IMG/VR virus record: IMGVR_UViG_3300008255_000099
Coordinates: 1 to 64,000 of that record
From: a virus
Length of the DNA stretch: 64,000 bases
Strand: one strand, 5' to 3'
Shown: positions 21,185 to 43,256 of the stretch, piece by piece
How positions within the stretch are numbered: the first letter of the stretch is position 1
How the letters are laid out: each line of letters starts with the position of its first letter
The notes under the pieces: model-generated
Seen by the model: the letters and a program-made list of their open reading frames with translations, nothing else
Database searches by the model: none
Told to the model about the DNA's origin: nothing
Position numbers and translations under genes: made by a program

Positions 21185-21652
21185 CTATTCCGAGAGAAGA
21201 TTAAACACTTTTCCCATTAGAACATCAGATTCCATATGCATTTCTGCTTGATCTAAATAATTTGATGTTTTAATAATTCTTTCAACATTCGCATAAAGTC
21301 TTTTTTCTGCTTTTAATTGATTTATTTCCTGGCGAAGAATATTTATTTCTAAATCAGTATCTTTTTTTGCAAGATTTGTTTCTTTTTCAAGCGCTCTTAT
21401 TTCTCTTTCAACATCTCTAACAAGTTTGTTGTACAGTCTAAATTCTTCTCTTTGATCTTTTCTTATCTCTACGCCCCCTGGCTTCAAAGCAACTCTTCTT
21501 CTTAAAGTTCTGGCCCTTTCTTTTTTCATTTTAAGTTGTTCTTTAAGAGAATCGGCTCTAGCTTGACCAGCTTTTCGTTTATCGTCGATTAACGAAGATT
21601 TAAAATCAATTTGTTTTTGAATTAATTCTGCTTTGCTGCTTTCTCTAGACAT
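21185..21652 (-). CDS. Coiled-coil protein with C-terminal helical tag
   Basis: K/E/R-rich heptads; IIKTSNYLDQAEMHMESDVL at the end. Confidence 0.7.
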   Translation of the reverse strand: MSRESSKAELIQKQIDFKSSLIDDKRKAGQARADSLKEQLKMKKERARTLRRRVALKPGGVEIRKDQREEFRLYNKLVRDVEREIRALEKETNLAKKDTDLEINILRQEINQLKAEKRLYANVERIIKTSNYLDQAEMHMESDVLMGKVFNLLSE

Positions 21653-23513
21653 TTTTATTCCTTATCAATTGCTCTCTTCTTTTAGCCAATTCTTCATCAT
21701 CTCCAAGATTCCCTGCAACTGACTCCCATAATGCATAATAATCATCTGGAGAAACAGCTTCATTTTGCCATTCTTGAGGGAGCGAGTTATGTCCCATGTT
21801 ATACAAATCCCTAATTTCCGGTTCGGAGAGTTGATCGGATTTTGCTCTCTCTGTTGTTGCTTGAATCGGATTTTCATTTACTTCTAATCCTAATTCATTA
21901 AAAACCTCATTAAAAACCTCAAGAATTAAATTGCCATCAGGTGGAATTATTTCACTAAATTTGAACTTGGTTTTAAGAAAGACAGGAAATTGATATTCTT
22001 TTGAAAGCTCTTCTGTGATAATCTCTGTGAATGGTAAAAAATAATAATTTTTGATTAATTTAATTAAATCTGGATTAATTTTTATAGCTTCTAAAATTCT
22101 ATATTTAATGTTCAACCCTAATTCTGGTTTCGCTTCTTCATAGATTTCTTTAACATTTAAAGTTATTTGTTTTAAATAAGACAAGATAGAACTAAACAAG
22201 TTTGCGAACATATCTCCTTCATAGCTCTCATTGATAAGAGAAATATAACTTTCATCATTCATAAGATATGAAAGCACTGGATTGTTAACCAGAAAATATT
22301 CTGTTGCATCGCCAAAAACTTCAACTCCATTTTTTACAATATCTATTGGTAATATTTTTTTATTTTCAAATAATTCCATTAAAAATATTTCTTGGAATGG
22401 AGCGAGAATGCATTCGTCTTGCCATTGTCTAAATGCATCAAAACTTAAATAAACATTTGATCTTGCTTCACTTAATATTTCATCTATGTTTAATTCAATC
22501 TCTTGAGGTTCACCCCAATCTCTTTCAATCTCAATAAATGAAATACCATAGTAATTAGCATTAGAAATCATTCTCTCTATTTCATGATCTTCAAGAAAAA
22601 TATCATAAATTTGTTGAATTTCTCTTCTAATTTCTCTATAGACAATTATATCAAAACTATTCTATGAAATTTCAAAAGCATCTTCTGAAATTTTTCTTAA
22701 TTCTTCATTTTTAAATCTTTCATCATTTCCATGAAAATAATTACTATAAATTGGATCTTGAATTTCATCAGGCCAAAGTTCTTCTGCCGCTTCATACCAT
22801 TCTTCATAGTTAGAAGTATTTATTGGGGGAACAGATATGAACTCTCTCTCTGGTTCTTTTTCTGGCTCTTCTTGTTTTTTCTTGAAAAGATTTCCGATTC
22901 CATTATAAATAAAATCAACAATTTTAGTTAAAAAATTATCTTCTTTTTTCTCTTCTGGGATATCTCCTTGTCCTTCTAATTCCATGTCGTCGCCAATTTT
23001 TTCAGAGATAGCGTCATACAAATGGCCCATTAATCCAGAGTATCTTCCAAATGGTCCTTTAAACCCTAATAATCTTTCTTCTAATATCTCTTTTAAAATT
23101 ATTTCAATAACATCCTTATTTATTGGAGGAAGTCCAGCCTCATTTCTCTGCGAAAGATATTCCCAAATTGCATCTCTAAAAATTGATAAATCGTTTTTAT
23201 TTTTTAAAAAATCAGAAGGAACAAAATATGAATATGAAAGAAGTTTTAAAACATATTTATAAATTTGTTCGTGAATGTCTGCAATCAAATATTTAAAGAA
23301 TTTTTTTCTTTCTTTTTCTATTGCCATATGTTCTGGATCTAATTTAATTTGTCTTAATGCGGTTTTTTCTTTTTGAAATAAATCAGTCCAATTAATGTGT
23401 AGCGCCCCCACATCAATAAAATCGATAGCAGAAATTTTTGTAAAACTGTCACAAAAGGTATGGAATCCTTTATCGTCGAATTTATTAGATAATTTTAAAC
23501 AGAATTTTTTCAT
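21645..23513 (-). CDS. Putative 622-aa amber read-through protein (283 aa + TAG + 30 open codons + 308 aa), or two separate genes
   Basis: TAG at 22662-22664 is followed by NSFDIIVYREIRREIQQIYDIFLEDHEIER, in frame with ATG at 22571; N-terminal tag LKLSNKFDDKGFH. Confidence 0.5.
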
Positions 23514-39287: not shown

Positions 39288-39968
39288 ATGCTAAACAGAA
39301 ACGACTTGGAGAACTTTGAGAGACCAAAAGAAATTCAGAAATTTCTTGATGAATATTCTGAATGGGAGGCAAAGTTTAAGAAAGAAGCCCCATCAACATC
39401 TTACAACCCATTGTGGTTTAAAAATAACCCAAAGCCGAACATGCCAAGGATTTTACTTATTGATTTAGATACCAACTATTTAAATCTAACAAGAAAGATA
39501 ATAAATAAAAGTTGGTTTTTACCAAAAATTTTTATTTTTTCAGAAGGTAATTGTGATTGGAATTTTTGGTTAATTCCAACATTTGAAGATCGTGAAAAAG
39601 TATTCATAGAAATTGTTGAATTTCTAGTTAAAACTAATAACATTTTTATCACAAACGAACAACCATCTGAAGAAGAATTAAAAAAAGAAATTGAGGAAAG
39701 GTTCCCGTACAAGGACATCCAGGAATCTGATGTTAATGAATTGCCAGAAAATATTTCAAAAGAGTTGCTATCAAAAGCTTCTACGCAAAAAGCAGACTTT
39801 TCTTCTTTCTTGATGTCTAATAAAAAGAATATTGATTTTAACAACCATCTTAAAAAAGCATTAGAAGGGGATGGTGTTTATGCTGCAAGAGTTTTGTCTT
39901 ATTTATCAACTGATTTTCATTCTGAATATAATTATTCATTAGAAGATTTTAAGAATTATTCTATTTGA
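39288..39968 (+). CDS. Hypothetical protein immediately upstream of the tRNA
   Basis: GGAGG RBS; TGTGATACAAT promoter-like sequence upstream. Confidence 0.7.
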   Translation: MLNRNDLENFERPKEIQKFLDEYSEWEAKFKKEAPSTSYNPLWFKNNPKPNMPRILLIDLDTNYLNLTRKIINKSWFLPKIFIFSEGNCDWNFWLIPTFEDREKVFIEIVEFLVKTNNIFITNEQPSEEELKKEIEERFPYKDIQESDVNELPENISKELLSKASTQKADFSSFLMSNKKNIDFNNHLKKALEGDGVYAARVLSYLSTDFHSEYNYSLEDFKNYSI

Positions 39969-39975
39969 ACGATGT

Positions 39976-40047
39976 GGCAACGAGGGCGATTGGTCGAGCC
40001 ATGGCACTCTAAATGCCCCGTAGAGAGTTCGATTCTCTCCGTTGCCA
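39976..40047 (+). tRNA. tRNA with CUA anticodon (amber suppressor type); no encoded CCA
   Basis: Acceptor GGCAACG/CGTTGCC (7 bp), D-stem GGC/GCC with GG in the loop, anticodon arm GGCA-CTCTAAA-TGCC, T-arm GAGAG-TTCGATT-CTCTC, discriminator A. Confidence 0.85.
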
Positions 40048-40204: not shown

Positions 40205-40693
40205 ATGAAGAAACAAGATCTTGACAAGTTGATAGAAACTTTAGATAAATTAAAAACATCTCAAGATTTAAATGAGATTCAAGATCTTGAAGATATGGTA
40301 TTGTTATTTTTTGACCATCATTCATTAATTGATGTTTTTGAGTTTGTGCCATATGAATATATTTATGATATTTTTTATCATATTAAAATTGGCGATTGTG
40401 AAGTTTTTGATTGTTTTTATTTATTTTTAAGAAGTGATAAAGAGCTTGCATTTAAGACATTGTTTTTTTCTGGATATTTTCCATCTGAAGTAATAGAAGA
40501 TATACTTTATAATTTTGGAGTAAAAGAAATAGAATTTTTAATAAAAAAATATCTTATGACTATGGATGAAATAATGGATGCTTTTAAAAATTCTAATCTT
40601 GAAATTGAAACAAACACAGAGGTTTATGAATGGGTTTGTGAGAAAATTAGAAAAGAACAACTTTTATCATGGGCACATAATATACTTTTTTAA
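40205..40693 (+). CDS. Hypothetical protein
   Basis: GAGGT RBS; typical codon usage. Confidence 0.65.
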   Translation: MKKQDLDKLIETLDKLKTSQDLNEIQDLEDMVLLFFDHHSLIDVFEFVPYEYIYDIFYHIKIGDCEVFDCFYLFLRSDKELAFKTLFFSGYFPSEVIEDILYNFGVKEIEFLIKKYLMTMDEIMDAFKNSNLEIETNTEVYEWVCEKIRKEQLLSWAHNILF

Positions 40694-40753
40694 CTTCTAC
40701 ATTGGGTTTTGGCGTCCGCTTGCTGTATAATGTAGGGAAAGGAGACGAGAGAA

Positions 40754-41122
40754 ATGAAAACATTAGACAAATTGTAGGAATTAGAAGAAGCTGTCAGAAA
40801 ACATTTTTATGTTTTAGTAAGAACCGATCTATCCTTGCCTCAACAAATCGTGCAAGCAGTCCATGCAGCACATGAGGCAGGAATTCACTTCGCACACCAA
40901 TCAAACAACACATCCTCTGTCGTTGTTTGTGAAGTCCCCTCTGAACAAGACCTGTTGTTTGCGTTAGATTCCTTAACGCAAAAAGGTATTCGTTGCGTCT
41001 TATTCCGTGAACCAGACATTGGTAATGAAGCTACCGCTTTGGCTTCTGAACCAATTTTCGGGAAACATCGTCACATCTTTCGAAAGTTCAAACTTTGGGG
41101 AAAAGGAGGAACAAATGCTTGA
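40754..41122 (+). CDS. Peptidyl-tRNA hydrolase type 2-like protein with in-frame TAG at codon 8 (40775-40777)
   Basis: MKTLDKL*ELEEAVRKHFYVLVRTDLSLPQQIVQAVHAA...FREPDIGNEATALASEP; AAGGAG RBS and TGCTGTATAAT promoter precede ATG 40754. Confidence 0.75.
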
Positions 41123-41528
41123 AAAAATACAAAAACTTGAAGCTGAAAACCATAAACTAATTTCAACAAATATTGGTCTTAGAAAAATGTTAGCTAGACA
41201 TGAATGGGACGCAGGAACAGGAAGTTGGTATAGATATTGTTGCTATTGTCATGGAAATAAGGATTCTGGACACGAAGAAGATTGTGAATGGAATCTATTT
41301 TTTTACAACAAAGAAGATCCTTCTTTTAGAATTTTTGAATCTTTAGTTAGAACACAAAAATATACAGATTCATTAATTCTTTTATTATGGAGAATCGACG
41401 AAGAGCTTGACGAGCTTGTGACACAAACAAATAATGAAAAATTCAAAGATATGCGAAAAAGAATAAAAAAGCGATTAGATATAATTTTTAGTTATCTTGG
41501 AGATAAAGATAACTATGAGATGGAATAA
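41115..41528 (+). CDS. Hypothetical protein with CxxC/H/C zinc site (likely start MLEKIQ)
   Basis: CCYCHG...GHEEDCEW; AAGGAGG RBS. Confidence 0.7.
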   Translation: MLEKIQKLEAENHKLISTNIGLRKMLARHEWDAGTGSWYRYCCYCHGNKDSGHEEDCEWNLFFYNKEDPSFRIFESLVRTQKYTDSLILLLWRIDEELDELVTQTNNEKFKDMRKRIKKRLDIIFSYLGDKDNYEME

Positions 41529-41541
41529 AAAGGAGAAGTAA

Positions 41542-41619
41542 ATGTTTGAAAATGAGTTTAGGTAGGGAAGGTCACCTCCTTGTCTATTTTTTTCGGAGGC
41601 TAATAAGCAACACATCTGA
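41542..41619 (+). promoter_or_regulatory. Candidate leader ORF with TAG at codon 8 and an anti-Shine-Dalgarno segment
   Basis: AAGGAG RBS, MFENEFR*GRSPPCLFFSEANKQHI*; CTCCTTGTC (41576-84) is complementary to GACAAGGAG (41634-42), the RBS of 41644. Confidence 0.45.
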
Positions 41620-41643: not shown

Positions 41644-41991
41644 ATGGAAATGAAAAAAACAATCTTCGCTTTAAAAGAAGAAATTAAAAAAATGTCTGAA
41701 ATTCAGAAAAAACTGAAAATTTTGAGAAAAACTGTATATCGTCACCCAAAACACGATGAATATTTTGCAGAATTAGGAGTTCAGGGGAATGGCGCTGCGA
41801 CACAGTGCGTCTACAATTCCTATTACATTTCTATTTTAATTTCACTAATGAATGAATTAAAAGGGAATCCAATAAGACATTATCGGGATTGGGTCGATGG
41901 GAAATCCCCAAGTTGCACTTGGGTCAAAAGAATAAATGAAAAACTTGGGATTGAGATAGAAAGACAACAAGCTATTTTACAAATAGCTTAA
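41644..41991 (+). CDS. Hypothetical protein
   Basis: LKEEIKKMSEIQKKLKILRKTV helical N-terminus; followed by a terminator. Confidence 0.7.
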   Translation: MEMKKTIFALKEEIKKMSEIQKKLKILRKTVYRHPKHDEYFAELGVQGNGAATQCVYNSYYISILISLMNELKGNPIRHYRDWVDGKSPSCTWVKRINEKLGIEIERQQAILQIA

Positions 41992-41993
41992 AC

Positions 41994-42037
41994 AAAACAA
42001 ATTTGGCCGAAGGTGTTCCTTCGGCCAAATTTGTTTT
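41994..42037. terminator. Bidirectional terminator between convergent genes
   Basis: AAAACAAATTTGGCCGAAGG-TGTT-CCTTCGGCCAAATTTGTTTT. Confidence 0.75.
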
Positions 42038-42041
42038 AAAA

Positions 42042-43256
42042 TTAAGCTGATTCTTTAAATGACAATGATTCAAGAATTGTTCCAGTAGACGTTGTTGTTT
42101 GGCAACAAAGTGCTACAACATCTGAAACCCCATCAATATCCGCAGCTATAGATAATAGATTATTTACATTAATATTTGATAGCGCATCAGAAGATTTAGA
42201 AATATATCCAGAACTAATTTGCGTCCCATTAGTAACTGTTCCTGTTGCAGTGATATCATATTGTGCTACGCTATTATCCAATGTTACCCATGAGGCTGCT
42301 GTTCCACCCGTTACAGTAGGGTTAAAAATAACAGCCCATCTATAATCATCATTACCAGAAACCGATAGAAAATTTAAACCAATAATTTCTATTTTCTCAC
42401 GTATATAAGAAGAGTTAAGTCTAATTTGAATAACTGGTATTAATGTTGTTGACATTGATTTCGATGTTATACCATTATCAACAGATCTAATTATTTCTCT
42501 TGGATTATGACCGCCCTCTGACATAACAGAACAACAAATTGCATCCATTGTTGTAAGACTAGCGGTTGTATTTGTGTTTATAATTTCATATCTAACTGGC
42601 AAATTCGGTGTCGTCATATAAACTTCCGCTTTATTGTTCGCATTATTAAATTCATGACAATATGCTGGAATCCCATCTATAACAAATCCTAACCTAACAC
42701 GACCAACACCAAGCCATTCTAAATCAATAAAGAAAATTTGACATTTAGTAAAATCTAAATTTATTCCACTTGGACCTGTGCCATCCATTATATCTAAATT
42801 CCAGCTTGATTGAACGACACGAGTATCAACAGCGGATCCAGAAGTGTAACTTCTTTGTACCACTCCCATAACTGTTCCTGCCATTTCAAAGAAAATACCG
42901 TTAGATGCATCAAAATAACCTATTCTCTTTGTGACATTTTCTTTCCCGTCATTTAAATTGCCTGTTATTATTATAAGATGAGATTTTCCGGGTTGATACT
43001 GAAAATATTCTTTCGTTTATCTTATAACATATTCACCAGATACAGTCCCAACCTGAAGTGTTGTTGAGCTTTCATTGATATTATATGTAGTTGAAGCACC
43101 TGCCCCATTTGTTTTTATTGACCAAATAAGTCCATTATCCATACCAATCTGTTTACTATCAAATAAACTCTGGGTATTTGAAACTCTAAGTCTGGCAAAA
43201 GCATCTATCGAAGGACTATCACTATATTCAATTTTTGTTGTTGGAAAATAACTCAT
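42042..43256 (-). pseudogene. Phage structural (beta-sandwich) protein interrupted by an in-frame TAA at 43017-43019
   Basis: DAFARLRVSN...VIR*TKEYFQYQPGKSHL; the frame stays open into 42042..42884. The family motif as recalled is IRQTxxYFxYQPGKS. Confidence 0.65.

What the first reader, a model, noticed from the sequence alone, without database searches (positions are those of the whole stretch)
40754..41122. Peptidyl-tRNA hydrolase-like gene that seems to need amber read-through, 700 nt from the suppressor tRNA
Seen: promoter, AAGGAG RBS, ATG, then TAG at codon 8. The first conserved PTH2 strand (HFYVLVRTDL) lies after the TAG and before the next possible start (TTG 40835), with no ATG/GTG/TTG in between. 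Established: Pth recycles dropped-off peptidyl-tRNA, and translation-factor genes can be gated by recoding (RF2 frameshift). Inference: a feedback circuit in which suppressor activity or release-factor shortage turns on a ribosome-rescue enzyme. I know of no description of this arrangement.
Basis: partly seen in the sequence, partly recalled or inferred. Interest (0 to 1): 0.85.

Follow-up and report, generated by a model that had tools for sequence, protein, structure and literature searches.

The report
Amber-gated phage Pth2-like gene
A large groundwater phage that mostly uses the normal genetic code has a UAG stop at codon 8 of a small tRNA-hydrolase-like gene and carries its own UAG-reading tRNA 0.7 kb upstream; dozens of distant phages, some lab-grown, keep this pairing, so the enzyme is probably made only when that tRNA overrides the stop.

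Summary
An AAGGAG ribosome-binding site and ATG 40754 are followed by TAG at codon 8. No ATG, GTG, TTG, CTG or ATH codon lies in frame before TTG 40835, which is already past the first core strand. Assemblies from three other samples show the same TAG.

The TAG is not damage. Of 70 non-redundant related phage loci, 46 have an in-frame TAG just before that strand, usually as ATG-NNN-TAG. Thirty-nine of those carry a tRNA-CUA within 6 kb, always on the same strand. Three loci gated by TGA carry tRNA-UCA, and the one gated by TAA carries tRNA-UUA (Fisher p = 1e-6). Cultured phages GAP32, CBB, fHe-Yen9-04, RsoM2USA and ME3 share the gate.

The protein has a Pth2 fold but scores below Pfam's cut-off and appears to lack Pth2's catalytic lysine loop.

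This phage is not wholesale code 15: TAG ends 30 of 151 long ORFs, and only three frames need read-through.

Best reading: a translational lock read by the phage's own suppressor tRNA (about 0.8).

I found no paper describing this. The scan has noted the same arrangement before on other DNA (225 notes, at least 161 genomes).

The parts
39903..39932 (+). Promoter-like site (TTATCA, 18 nt, TATAAT) upstream of the tRNA; possible start of a tRNA-to-hydrolase transcription unit
   Evidence: This is a consensus match only; the number of such sites in the region equals the shuffled expectation.
39976..40047 (+). Amber-suppressor tRNA, anticodon CUA; CCA is not encoded
   Evidence: ARAGORN. Rfam RF00005: 50.6 bits, E 4e-9, with G1:C72, A73, A8 and a U27.C43 mismatch. 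It is the only tRNA in the 183-kb record.
40205..40693 (+). 162-aa ORF of unknown function between the tRNA and the gated gene
   Evidence: No Pfam or PHROG family. Not conserved among the related loci.
40726..40731 (+). TATAAT -10-like hexamer with a weak -35 (TTGGGT)
   Evidence: Read directly. Not listed by the promoter scan.
40739..40744 (+). Shine-Dalgarno AAGGAG, 9 nt before the ATG
   Evidence: Related loci have GGAG or GGAGG 5-7 nt before their ATG.
40754..41122 (+). PTH2-fold gene: 122 codons if TAG is decoded, ending in TGA
   Evidence: AF2 model: pLDDT 88, pTM 0.80. The top Foldseek hits are all Pth2 structures.
40775..40777 (+). The gate: in-frame TAG at codon 8, followed by G
   Evidence: Confirmed in three independent assemblies. 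An equivalent gate is present in 50 of 70 related loci.
40802..40831 (+). First core strand HFYVLVRTDL, which cannot be translated without reading the TAG
   Evidence: Alignment A1; AF2 strand E16-23. The next start codon is TTG 40835.
41116..41528 (+). 137-aa Cys/His-rich ORF whose ATG overlaps the hydrolase stop (ATGCTTGA), suggesting translational coupling
   Evidence: Not conserved in the related loci.
41559..41596 (+). Terminator-like hairpin followed by a T-run; probable end of the operon
41644..41991 (+). Conserved neighbour: a helical protein of about 115 aa with motifs LK..IK..A..Q..LK..RKT and AY..LRG[KRS]; function unknown
   Evidence: Two BLAST clusters (10 loci including the window, and 17 loci) lie beside the hydrolase gene and share these motifs by my reading. 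Twenty-three of the homologs align with the window protein in A2. AF2 pLDDT 85. No structural match in the PDB.

Best explanation
This is a translational lock and key. The mRNA of a small Pth2-fold protein starts normally (ribosome-binding site, ATG) but reaches UAG after seven codons. Release factor 1 would end translation there, leaving only a heptapeptide. The full protein is made only when the phage's own tRNA-CUA decodes that UAG. That tRNA is encoded 0.7 kb upstream on the same strand and is possibly co-transcribed. For it to act, it must be transcribed, processed, given its CCA end, charged, and must outcompete RF1.

What the evidence shows, by comparison and not by experiment: the gate is real, it is kept by selection across a very diverged phage family, and it is matched to the suppressor carried by each phage. 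I put the gate at about 0.8.

What is inferred: because yield depends on the suppression-to-termination ratio, the amount of enzyme tracks suppressor activity. The enzyme, a tRNA-ester hydrolase by fold, would then act on tRNA-linked by-products of suppression, such as dropped-off peptidyl-tRNA or products of ribosomes that ran past stops, or on the suppressor tRNA itself. I put this coupling or feedback purpose at about 0.35.
For: In this window:
- No alternative start exists before the core strand.
- The TAG is identical in three other assemblies.
- The only tRNA in 183 kb is a CUA tRNA, 706 nt upstream on the same strand.

In 70 non-redundant related loci:
- Forty-six are TAG-gated, and 39 of those have tRNA-CUA within 6 kb.
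- Five of the seven TAG-gated loci without a nearby tRNA-CUA were searched contig-wide. Two had one elsewhere on the contig.
- All 51 CUA tRNAs are on the gene's strand, at a median distance of 700 nt.

Covariation between stop and anticodon:
- The three TGA-gated loci carry tRNA-UCA and the one TAA-gated locus carries tRNA-UUA. No other locus has those tRNAs (4/0/0/66, Fisher p = 1.1e-6).
- The TGA-gated L014 nests inside a TAG-gated clade.

Features of the gate:
- The stop is codon 3 in 33 of 51 gated genes.
- The base after the stop is A in 30, G in 16, C in 5 and T in none.
- A Shine-Dalgarno sequence sits in front of the ATG, not in front of the TAG.
- The gate occurs on both deep halves of the family tree.

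Specificity: in this genome and in GAP32, no other gene fits a strict early-gate scan without an internal start.

Cultured phages with the gate: GAP32, CBB, fHe-Yen9-04, RsoM2USA and ME3. A CUA tRNA was located in three of them: GAP32, fHe-Yen9-04 and ME3. The RsoM2USA paper reports one. None was found within 3.5 kb in CBB.

Fold: Pth2.
Against: - Nothing is experimental. Expression, charging and the amino acid carried by the tRNA are unknown.
- TAG terminates 30 of 151 long ORFs in this genome. Strong suppression should therefore be costly, and suppression may be weak or limited to part of the infection cycle.
- Twenty related loci are ungated, and ten of these still sit next to a tRNA-CUA. 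The enzyme-tRNA link therefore does not need the gate, which argues against a pure 'sensor' role.
- About 40% of gated genes have ATT, ATA, ATC, GTG or CTG directly after the stop. Re-initiation cannot be excluded for those.
- The family scores below Pfam's PTH2 cut-off and aligns without the GK loop that holds Pth2's catalytic lysine. Hydrolase activity is therefore not assured.
- The covariation rests on three independent non-TAG cases.
Confidence: 0.8

Rival explanations
1. The gate is the same but its purpose differs: a timer or safety lock for a harmful enzyme. The Pth2-like protein would damage translation if made early or out of context. The UAG delays or restricts its synthesis until the suppressor tRNA has matured, with no feedback on suppression.
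For: The very early position of the stop (codon 3 in 33 of 51) keeps the abortive product tiny, as expected of a pure on/off lock. Gated genes seldom end in TAG: 3 of 46 by my count from the table. Published work proposes that in-frame stops delay lytic genes in recoded phages (Borges et al. preprint).
Against: Ten ungated homologs sit directly beside a tRNA-CUA, so unrestricted expression is tolerated. The gene may be co-transcribed with the tRNA, which would already couple their timing. Toxicity is untested.
Confidence: 0.25
2. ATG-NNN-TAG is a mini upstream ORF. The hydrolase would be made by termination-reinitiation or non-canonical initiation just after the stop, independently of the suppressor tRNA.
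For: Twenty-one of 51 gated genes have ATT, ATA, ATC, GTG or CTG directly after the stop. In Mycobacterium phage Cane17 the layout is ATG-TAG-GTG and the GTG is the annotated start.
Against: In the window no near-cognate start codon lies between the TAG and the core strand. Thirty of 51 gated genes have codons such as ACT, AAC, GAA, GGT or GTA after the stop. A mini-ORF could end in any stop, yet TAG is used in 46 of 50 gated loci. The exceptions match the local suppressor's anticodon.
Confidence: 0.07
3. The phage simply uses genetic code 15 (TAG as a sense codon), and this TAG is one ordinary sense codon among many.
For: A CUA suppressor tRNA is present. A second protein-like frame is interrupted by TAG at 22662-22664.
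Against: TAG ends 30 of 151 long ORFs. Most same-frame ORF pairs split by TAG are adjacent genes with a Met a few codons after the TAG. Only three protein-like frames in 183 kb need read-through. Chance use of TAG as a sense codon would not keep it at the same early position in homologs of 30-60% identity.
Confidence: 0.04
4. The TAG is a sequencing or assembly error, or the gene is a pseudogene.
For: The same genome has an in-frame TAA in a virion protein gene. Earlier notes report small insertion scars in two genes.
Against: Three other assemblies have the same TAG. The rest of the frame is intact and gives a confident fold. The gate is conserved in 50 of 70 related loci and in cultured, viable phages.
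Confidence: 0.02

Closest known systems
Stop-codon-recoded phages with their own suppressor tRNAs (TAG read as Gln, 'code 15'; crAss-like, Lak and others; Borges et al. preprint 10.1101/2021.08.26.457843; PMC9523058)
   Same: A phage-encoded suppressor tRNA lets in-frame stops be read. Those stops are proposed to hold back translation of the genes that contain them until the tRNA is available.
   Different: [quoted passage not shown] Here the genome keeps TAG as a normal terminator. One small gene family carries the gate at a conserved, very early position. The partner is a Pth2-like gene, which that work does not mention.
prfB (release factor 2) autoregulation through an early in-frame UGA
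   Same: A translation-factor gene has an early in-frame stop whose bypass depends on termination efficiency at that stop. Output therefore reports the state of the termination machinery.
   Different: prfB uses a +1 frameshift, and its product acts directly on the gating codon. Here bypass is in-frame, by a dedicated tRNA, and nothing shows that the product acts on UAG decoding.
Archaeal and eukaryotic peptidyl-tRNA hydrolase 2 (Pfam PF01981; PDB 2zv3, 1q7s Bit1, 1wn2, 3erj, 1xty), and the PTH2 genes noted in jumbo phages by Iyer et al. 2021 (PMC7824862)
   Same: Same fold (TM 0.6-0.74) and the same N-terminal RxDL...Q..HA motif. Iyer et al. already report PTH2 genes across jumbo phages.
   Different: About 20% identity, and below Pfam's and NCBIfam's cut-offs. 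The GK loop carrying Pth2's catalytic lysine is missing in the alignment. The jumbo-phage paper mentions neither an in-frame stop nor suppressor tRNAs.
'Orphan' suppressor tRNAs of cultured jumbo phages (XacN1, PMC5852040; RsoM2USA, PMC8504454)
   Same: CUA tRNAs in phages that use the standard code.
   Different: Those papers state that no target gene could be identified. Here RsoM2USA is shown to have ML-TAG in front of an unannotated Pth2-like gene. XacN1's homolog is fused to a longer N-terminal region and is ungated.
Lambda bar minigenes (ATG-ATA-stop), which poison Pth-limited cells through peptidyl-tRNA drop-off (from my own knowledge, not checked in a paper here)
   Same: A two-codon ORF followed by a stop, tied to peptidyl-tRNA hydrolase biology. 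Without suppression, ATG-NNN-TAG is formally such a minigene.
   Different: bar minigenes stand alone. Here the stop is followed in frame by the hydrolase gene itself. In this window the leader is seven codons, not two.

Membership tests
Pth2 (PF01981) peptidyl-tRNA hydrolase | Pth2 alpha/beta fold | tested here: met
   AF2 model with pLDDT 88. The top Foldseek PDB hits are nearly all annotated Pth2 chains (E 3e-5 to 1e-3, TM up to 0.74).
Pth2 (PF01981) peptidyl-tRNA hydrolase | Score above the curated family cut-off | tested here: not met
   Pfam 21.1 bits against a cut-off of 23, E 3.8e-4. NCBIfam Pth2 equivalog 14.4 bits against 126.
Pth2 (PF01981) peptidyl-tRNA hydrolase | N-terminal RxDL strand and Q..HA helix motif | tested here: met
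   VRTDL...QQIVQAVHA aligns with the same motifs of 2zv3, 1rzw and 24bt. D, Q and H are invariant in the family.
Pth2 (PF01981) peptidyl-tRNA hydrolase | Catalytic lysine in the GK loop after the RxDL strand (its role is from my own knowledge of Pth2 mutagenesis) | tested here: inconclusive
   Profile alignments place a two-residue gap where Pth2 has GK, and the phage family has QQ there. The alignments are weak (E 0.005-0.2).
Pth2 (PF01981) peptidyl-tRNA hydrolase | Hydrolysis of peptidyl-tRNA | not testable with these tools
   Needs an enzyme assay or complementation of a pth(ts) strain.
   Window: TAG at codon 8, 15 codons before R23. Family: 50 of 70 loci.
   tRNA-CUA lies 706 nt upstream on the + strand. 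Family: 43 of 50 gated loci have the cognate tRNA within 6 kb.
Code-15 (TAG-recoded) phage | In-frame TAG in many genes, especially structural and lysis genes | tested here: not met
   Only two protein-like frames contain an internal TAG in 183 kb.
Code-15 (TAG-recoded) phage | TAG no longer used as a terminator | tested here: not met
   Thirty of 151 long ORFs end in TAG.
prfB-type autoregulatory recoding | The product acts on the very signal that gates its own synthesis | not testable with these tools
   No data show whether the protein affects UAG decoding, RF1 or the CUA tRNA.

The most novel reading that the evidence does not exclude
The tRNA and the gated gene form a self-referential controller. 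The Pth2-like enzyme would act on the suppressor tRNA's own acylated or peptidyl form. Suppression efficiency would then set the enzyme level, and the enzyme level would set suppression. That would be an RF2-like homeostat for stop-codon read-through. It would let a phage using the standard code keep a suppressor tRNA safely, and could be the stepping stone from which full TAG recoding evolves.
Probability: 0.2. Interest if true: 0.9.

Novelty: new variant of a known kind. Interest (0 to 1): 0.76.

Why it matters
- **A target for 'orphan' suppressor tRNAs.** The module gives a concrete, conserved client gene for the suppressor tRNAs of jumbo phages. Published genome papers say they could not find one (XacN1, RsoM2USA).
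- **A natural stop-codon switch.** It is a single-gene switch in phages that otherwise use the standard code. This bears on how suppressor tRNAs persist before a full code change.
- **Annotation errors.** It explains a recurrent one: the gene is missing or truncated in GAP32, CBB, fHe-Yen9-04, RsoM2USA and ME3.
- **Testable in the lab.** Several of these phages and their hosts are in culture.
- **Possible tools.** Matched tRNA and gate pairs (UAG/CUA, UGA/UCA, UAA/UUA) could also serve as parts for genetic-code engineering.

Tried and rejected
- **DNA search against cultured phages** with 6 kb of the window: no match.
- **Complex prediction** of the Pth2-like protein with the conserved helical neighbour: no verdict (score 0.00). 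This is not evidence either way.
- **The helical neighbour:** no Pfam or PHROG family, no PDB relative by sequence and none by fold. The Atlas gave only weak helix-turn-helix leads.
- **Amino-acid identity of the suppressor tRNA:** in loci with many tRNAs, the nearest other tRNA differs from locus to locus, so no assignment is possible.
- **Relatives of the TAG-interrupted 622-codon ORF:** none found, so whether that TAG is read through stays open.
- **Bacterial genomes:** the scan gave one weak hit, which is uninformative.
- **RNA runs:** no RNA holder was listed, so expression could not be examined.
- **Theta or HDV-like ribozymes next to the tRNA:** no Rfam match.
- **Contig-wide search for CUA tRNAs:** nothing found in three fragmentary contigs (17-39% complete).
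- **Other same-frame ORF pairs split by TAG** (near genome positions 153205, 93858, 174029 and window 34476): rejected as read-through candidates, because a Met follows the TAG within a few codons.

Full report
**What is in the window.**
The window is the first 64 kb of a 183,411-bp IMG/VR virus record. It has 32% G+C, CheckV rates it 58% complete, and it comes from aquifer and groundwater metagenomes. On the + strand, AAGGAG (40739-40744) precedes ATG 40754. The frame reads MKTLDKL, then TAG (40775-40777, codon 8). It stays open through ELEEAVRKHFYVLVRTDL... to TGA 41120-41122.

None of the codons between the TAG and TTG 40835 is ATG, GTG, TTG, CTG or ATH. Starting at TTG 40835 would remove the first core strand (AF2 strand E16-23). 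Every full-length homolog includes that strand (alignment A1).

Contigs from three other sequencing runs cover the TAG with no differences. The only tRNA in the whole record has anticodon CUA. It lies at 39976-40047, on the same strand, 706 nt upstream. It scores 50.6 bits against Rfam tRNA and has G1:C72, A73, A8 and no encoded CCA.

A promoter-like site lies before the tRNA (39903-39932), and a terminator-like hairpin follows the next gene (41559-41596). The tRNA and the gated gene may therefore share one transcript. That is an inference.

**What the protein is.**
Pfam PTH2 matches weakly: E 3.8e-4, 21.1 bits against a cut-off of 23. Two PHROGs of unknown function match better. An AlphaFold model built on 31 sequences is confident (pLDDT 88, pTM 0.80). 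Its top PDB matches are nearly all annotated Pth2 structures (2zv3, 1q7s, 1wn2, 3erj, 1xty; TM up to 0.74).

Profile alignments to Pth2 keep the RxDL strand and the Q..HA motif. They place a two-residue gap where Pth2 has the GK loop. By my own knowledge, that loop carries the catalytic lysine.

I therefore call the protein Pth2-fold or Pth2-like. I do not file it as a proven peptidyl-tRNA hydrolase. The family is large: 3,696 cluster representatives at E <= 1e-3.

**The gate is conserved.**
A scan of IMG/VR with the family alignment returned 80 loci, mostly on contigs of 50-470 kb. After removing duplicates, 70 remain.
- Forty-six have an in-frame TAG 8-20 codons before the R of RxDL, with no usable start codon between.
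- Three have TGA there, one has TAA, and 20 are ungated.

Counting the window and GAP32 as well, the stop is codon 3 (ATG-NNN-TAG) in 33 of 51 gated genes. The window's codon 8 is at the long end of the range. The base after the stop is A in 30, G in 16, C in 5 and T in none. Shine-Dalgarno sequences sit 5-7 nt before the ATG, not before the TAG, so the ATG is the start.

The gate occurs on both deep halves of the family tree, in homologs down to about 30% identity.

**The gate matches the local suppressor.**
ARAGORN finds a tRNA-CUA within 6 kb in 39 of the 46 TAG-gated loci. All 51 such tRNAs are on the gene's strand, at a median distance of 700 nt. Five of the seven exceptions were searched contig-wide, and two had a CUA tRNA 7 kb or 20 kb away.

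The three TGA-gated loci carry tRNA-UCA and the TAA-gated locus carries tRNA-UUA. No other locus has those tRNAs (Fisher p = 1.1e-6). Because L033 and L034 are near-identical, this amounts to three independent cases. L014, which is TGA-gated, nests within a TAG-gated clade.

This covariation is the main argument that the tRNA decodes the stop. A mini-ORF followed by re-initiation would not need a particular stop codon.

**This is not general recoding.**
TAG ends 30 of 151 long ORFs here. Same-frame ORF pairs separated by TAG are mostly adjacent genes, with a Met a few codons after the TAG.

A genome-wide scan finds only three protein-like frames that need read-through:
- the Pth2-like gene;
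- a 622-codon ORF with TAG at 22662-22664;
- a virion protein gene with TAA at 43017-43019.

In GAP32, the two other hits of the early-gate scan have internal Met starts.

**Cultured phages.**

| Phage | Start of the Pth2-like gene | CUA tRNA | Annotation of the gene |
|---|---|---|---|
| Cronobacter phage GAP32 | MAQ-TAG | 293273-293345, about 3 kb downstream | CDS truncated |
| Pectobacterium phage CBB | MAQ-TAG | none within 3.5 kb | CDS truncated |
| Yersinia phage fHe-Yen9-04 | MSH-TAG | annotated tRNA-Sup-CTA, 3.1 kb downstream | no CDS |
| Ralstonia phage RsoM2USA | ML-TAG | none in the 8-kb locus; one reported in its genome paper | no CDS |
| Acinetobacter phage ME3 | MT-TAG | annotated, anticodon CTA, 450 nt upstream | annotated CDS begins after the TAG |
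| Mycobacterium phage Cane17 | ATG-TAG-GTG (ambiguous) | 250 nt downstream | CDS annotated from the GTG |
| XacN1, RAS14 | fused to a longer N-terminal region, ungated | none within 2.5-4 kb | part of a longer CDS |
| RaK2 | ordinary Met start, ungated | none within 2.5 kb | CDS annotated |

A 595-kb uncultured phage (LR756511) has MTH-TAG.

**How it most likely works.**
Supported by comparison: full-length protein requires decoding of the early stop by the cognate phage suppressor.

Inferred: yield then depends on the balance between suppressor and release factor, so the enzyme level follows suppression.

Ten ungated homologs still sit beside a tRNA-CUA. This shows that the enzyme is tied to the suppressor as such. 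That fits clearing tRNA-linked by-products of suppression, or acting on the suppressor tRNA itself. It fits a pure sensor less well. A timer or lock for a harmful enzyme is a live alternative. None of these purposes is tested.

**Literature.**
- Jumbo-phage PTH2 genes are known (PMC7824862), but that paper mentions neither suppressors nor in-frame stops.
- The stop-codon-recoding preprint describes a tRNA, synthetase and release-factor module and does not mention Pth.
- The XacN1 and RsoM2USA papers state that targets of their CUA tRNAs are unknown.
- Searches combining suppressor tRNA with PTH2 or peptidyl-tRNA hydrolase and phage terms found no paper describing the arrangement.

**Earlier notes of this scan.**
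The same arrangement has been noted before on other DNA: 225 notes in at least 161 genomes. Follow-ups there reached the same reading. A later check put the observation at 85/100 and the bold self-contained-switch reading at 20/100. I reached my reading before opening those notes and re-derived the key facts here. They are not independent evidence.

Noticed in passing
window 43017-43019 (- strand), within 42042-43256: There is an in-frame TAA in a virion structural protein gene (phrog_1645; one continuous profile alignment spans it). Homologs have CAA (Gln) at that position, in the invariant motif Q-TKEYFQYQPGK. Two other assemblies show the same TAA. The only tRNA found reads UAG, not UAA. 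This is either an ochre suppressor hidden in the missing 42% of the genome or a nonsense allele.
   Followed up: partly
window 41644-41991 (+); L003:6393-6719, L046:6497-6820, L040:5733-6032 and others: A helical protein of about 110 aa (motifs LK..IK..A..Q..LK..RKT and AY..LRG[KRS]) lies next to the Pth2-like gene in two BLAST clusters, one of 10 loci including the window and one of 17. A likely relative sits in GAP32's tRNA region near 311.5 kb. It matches no known family or fold. It may be a third part of the module.
   Followed up: partly
window 21645-23513 (- strand), TAG at 22662-22664: A 622-codon protein-like frame is interrupted by a single TAG, and no start codon follows for 30 codons. 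It is a possible second client of the suppressor. No homologs were found to test continuity.
   Followed up: partly
A transcription terminator for the tRNA-hydrolase operon is the simpler reading.
   Followed up: partly
window 41116-41528 (+): A 137-aa Cys/His-rich ORF (contains ...CCYCHGNKDSGHEEDCEW...) starts at an ATG that overlaps the hydrolase stop (ATGCTTGA), which suggests translational coupling. It is not conserved in the related loci.
   Followed up: no
L082 (GAP32), L147 (RsoM2USA), L148 (ME3), L151 (fHe-Yen9-04), L152 (CBB): Public annotations of cultured jumbo phages omit or truncate the Pth2-like gene because of the early TAG. GAP32's record lists no suppressor tRNA in the fetched 5.3-kb stretch, although a CUA tRNA is its best-scoring tRNA.
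   Followed up: yes
L039, about 27 codons after the R of RxDL: One otherwise ungated homolog next to a tRNA-CUA has its in-frame TAG inside the domain and not at the start.
   Followed up: no
window 41984-42049: A long perfect hairpin lies between the convergent genes 41644-41991 (+) and 42042-43256 (-). It gives weak chance matches to plant microRNA models. It is probably a bidirectional terminator.
   Followed up: no
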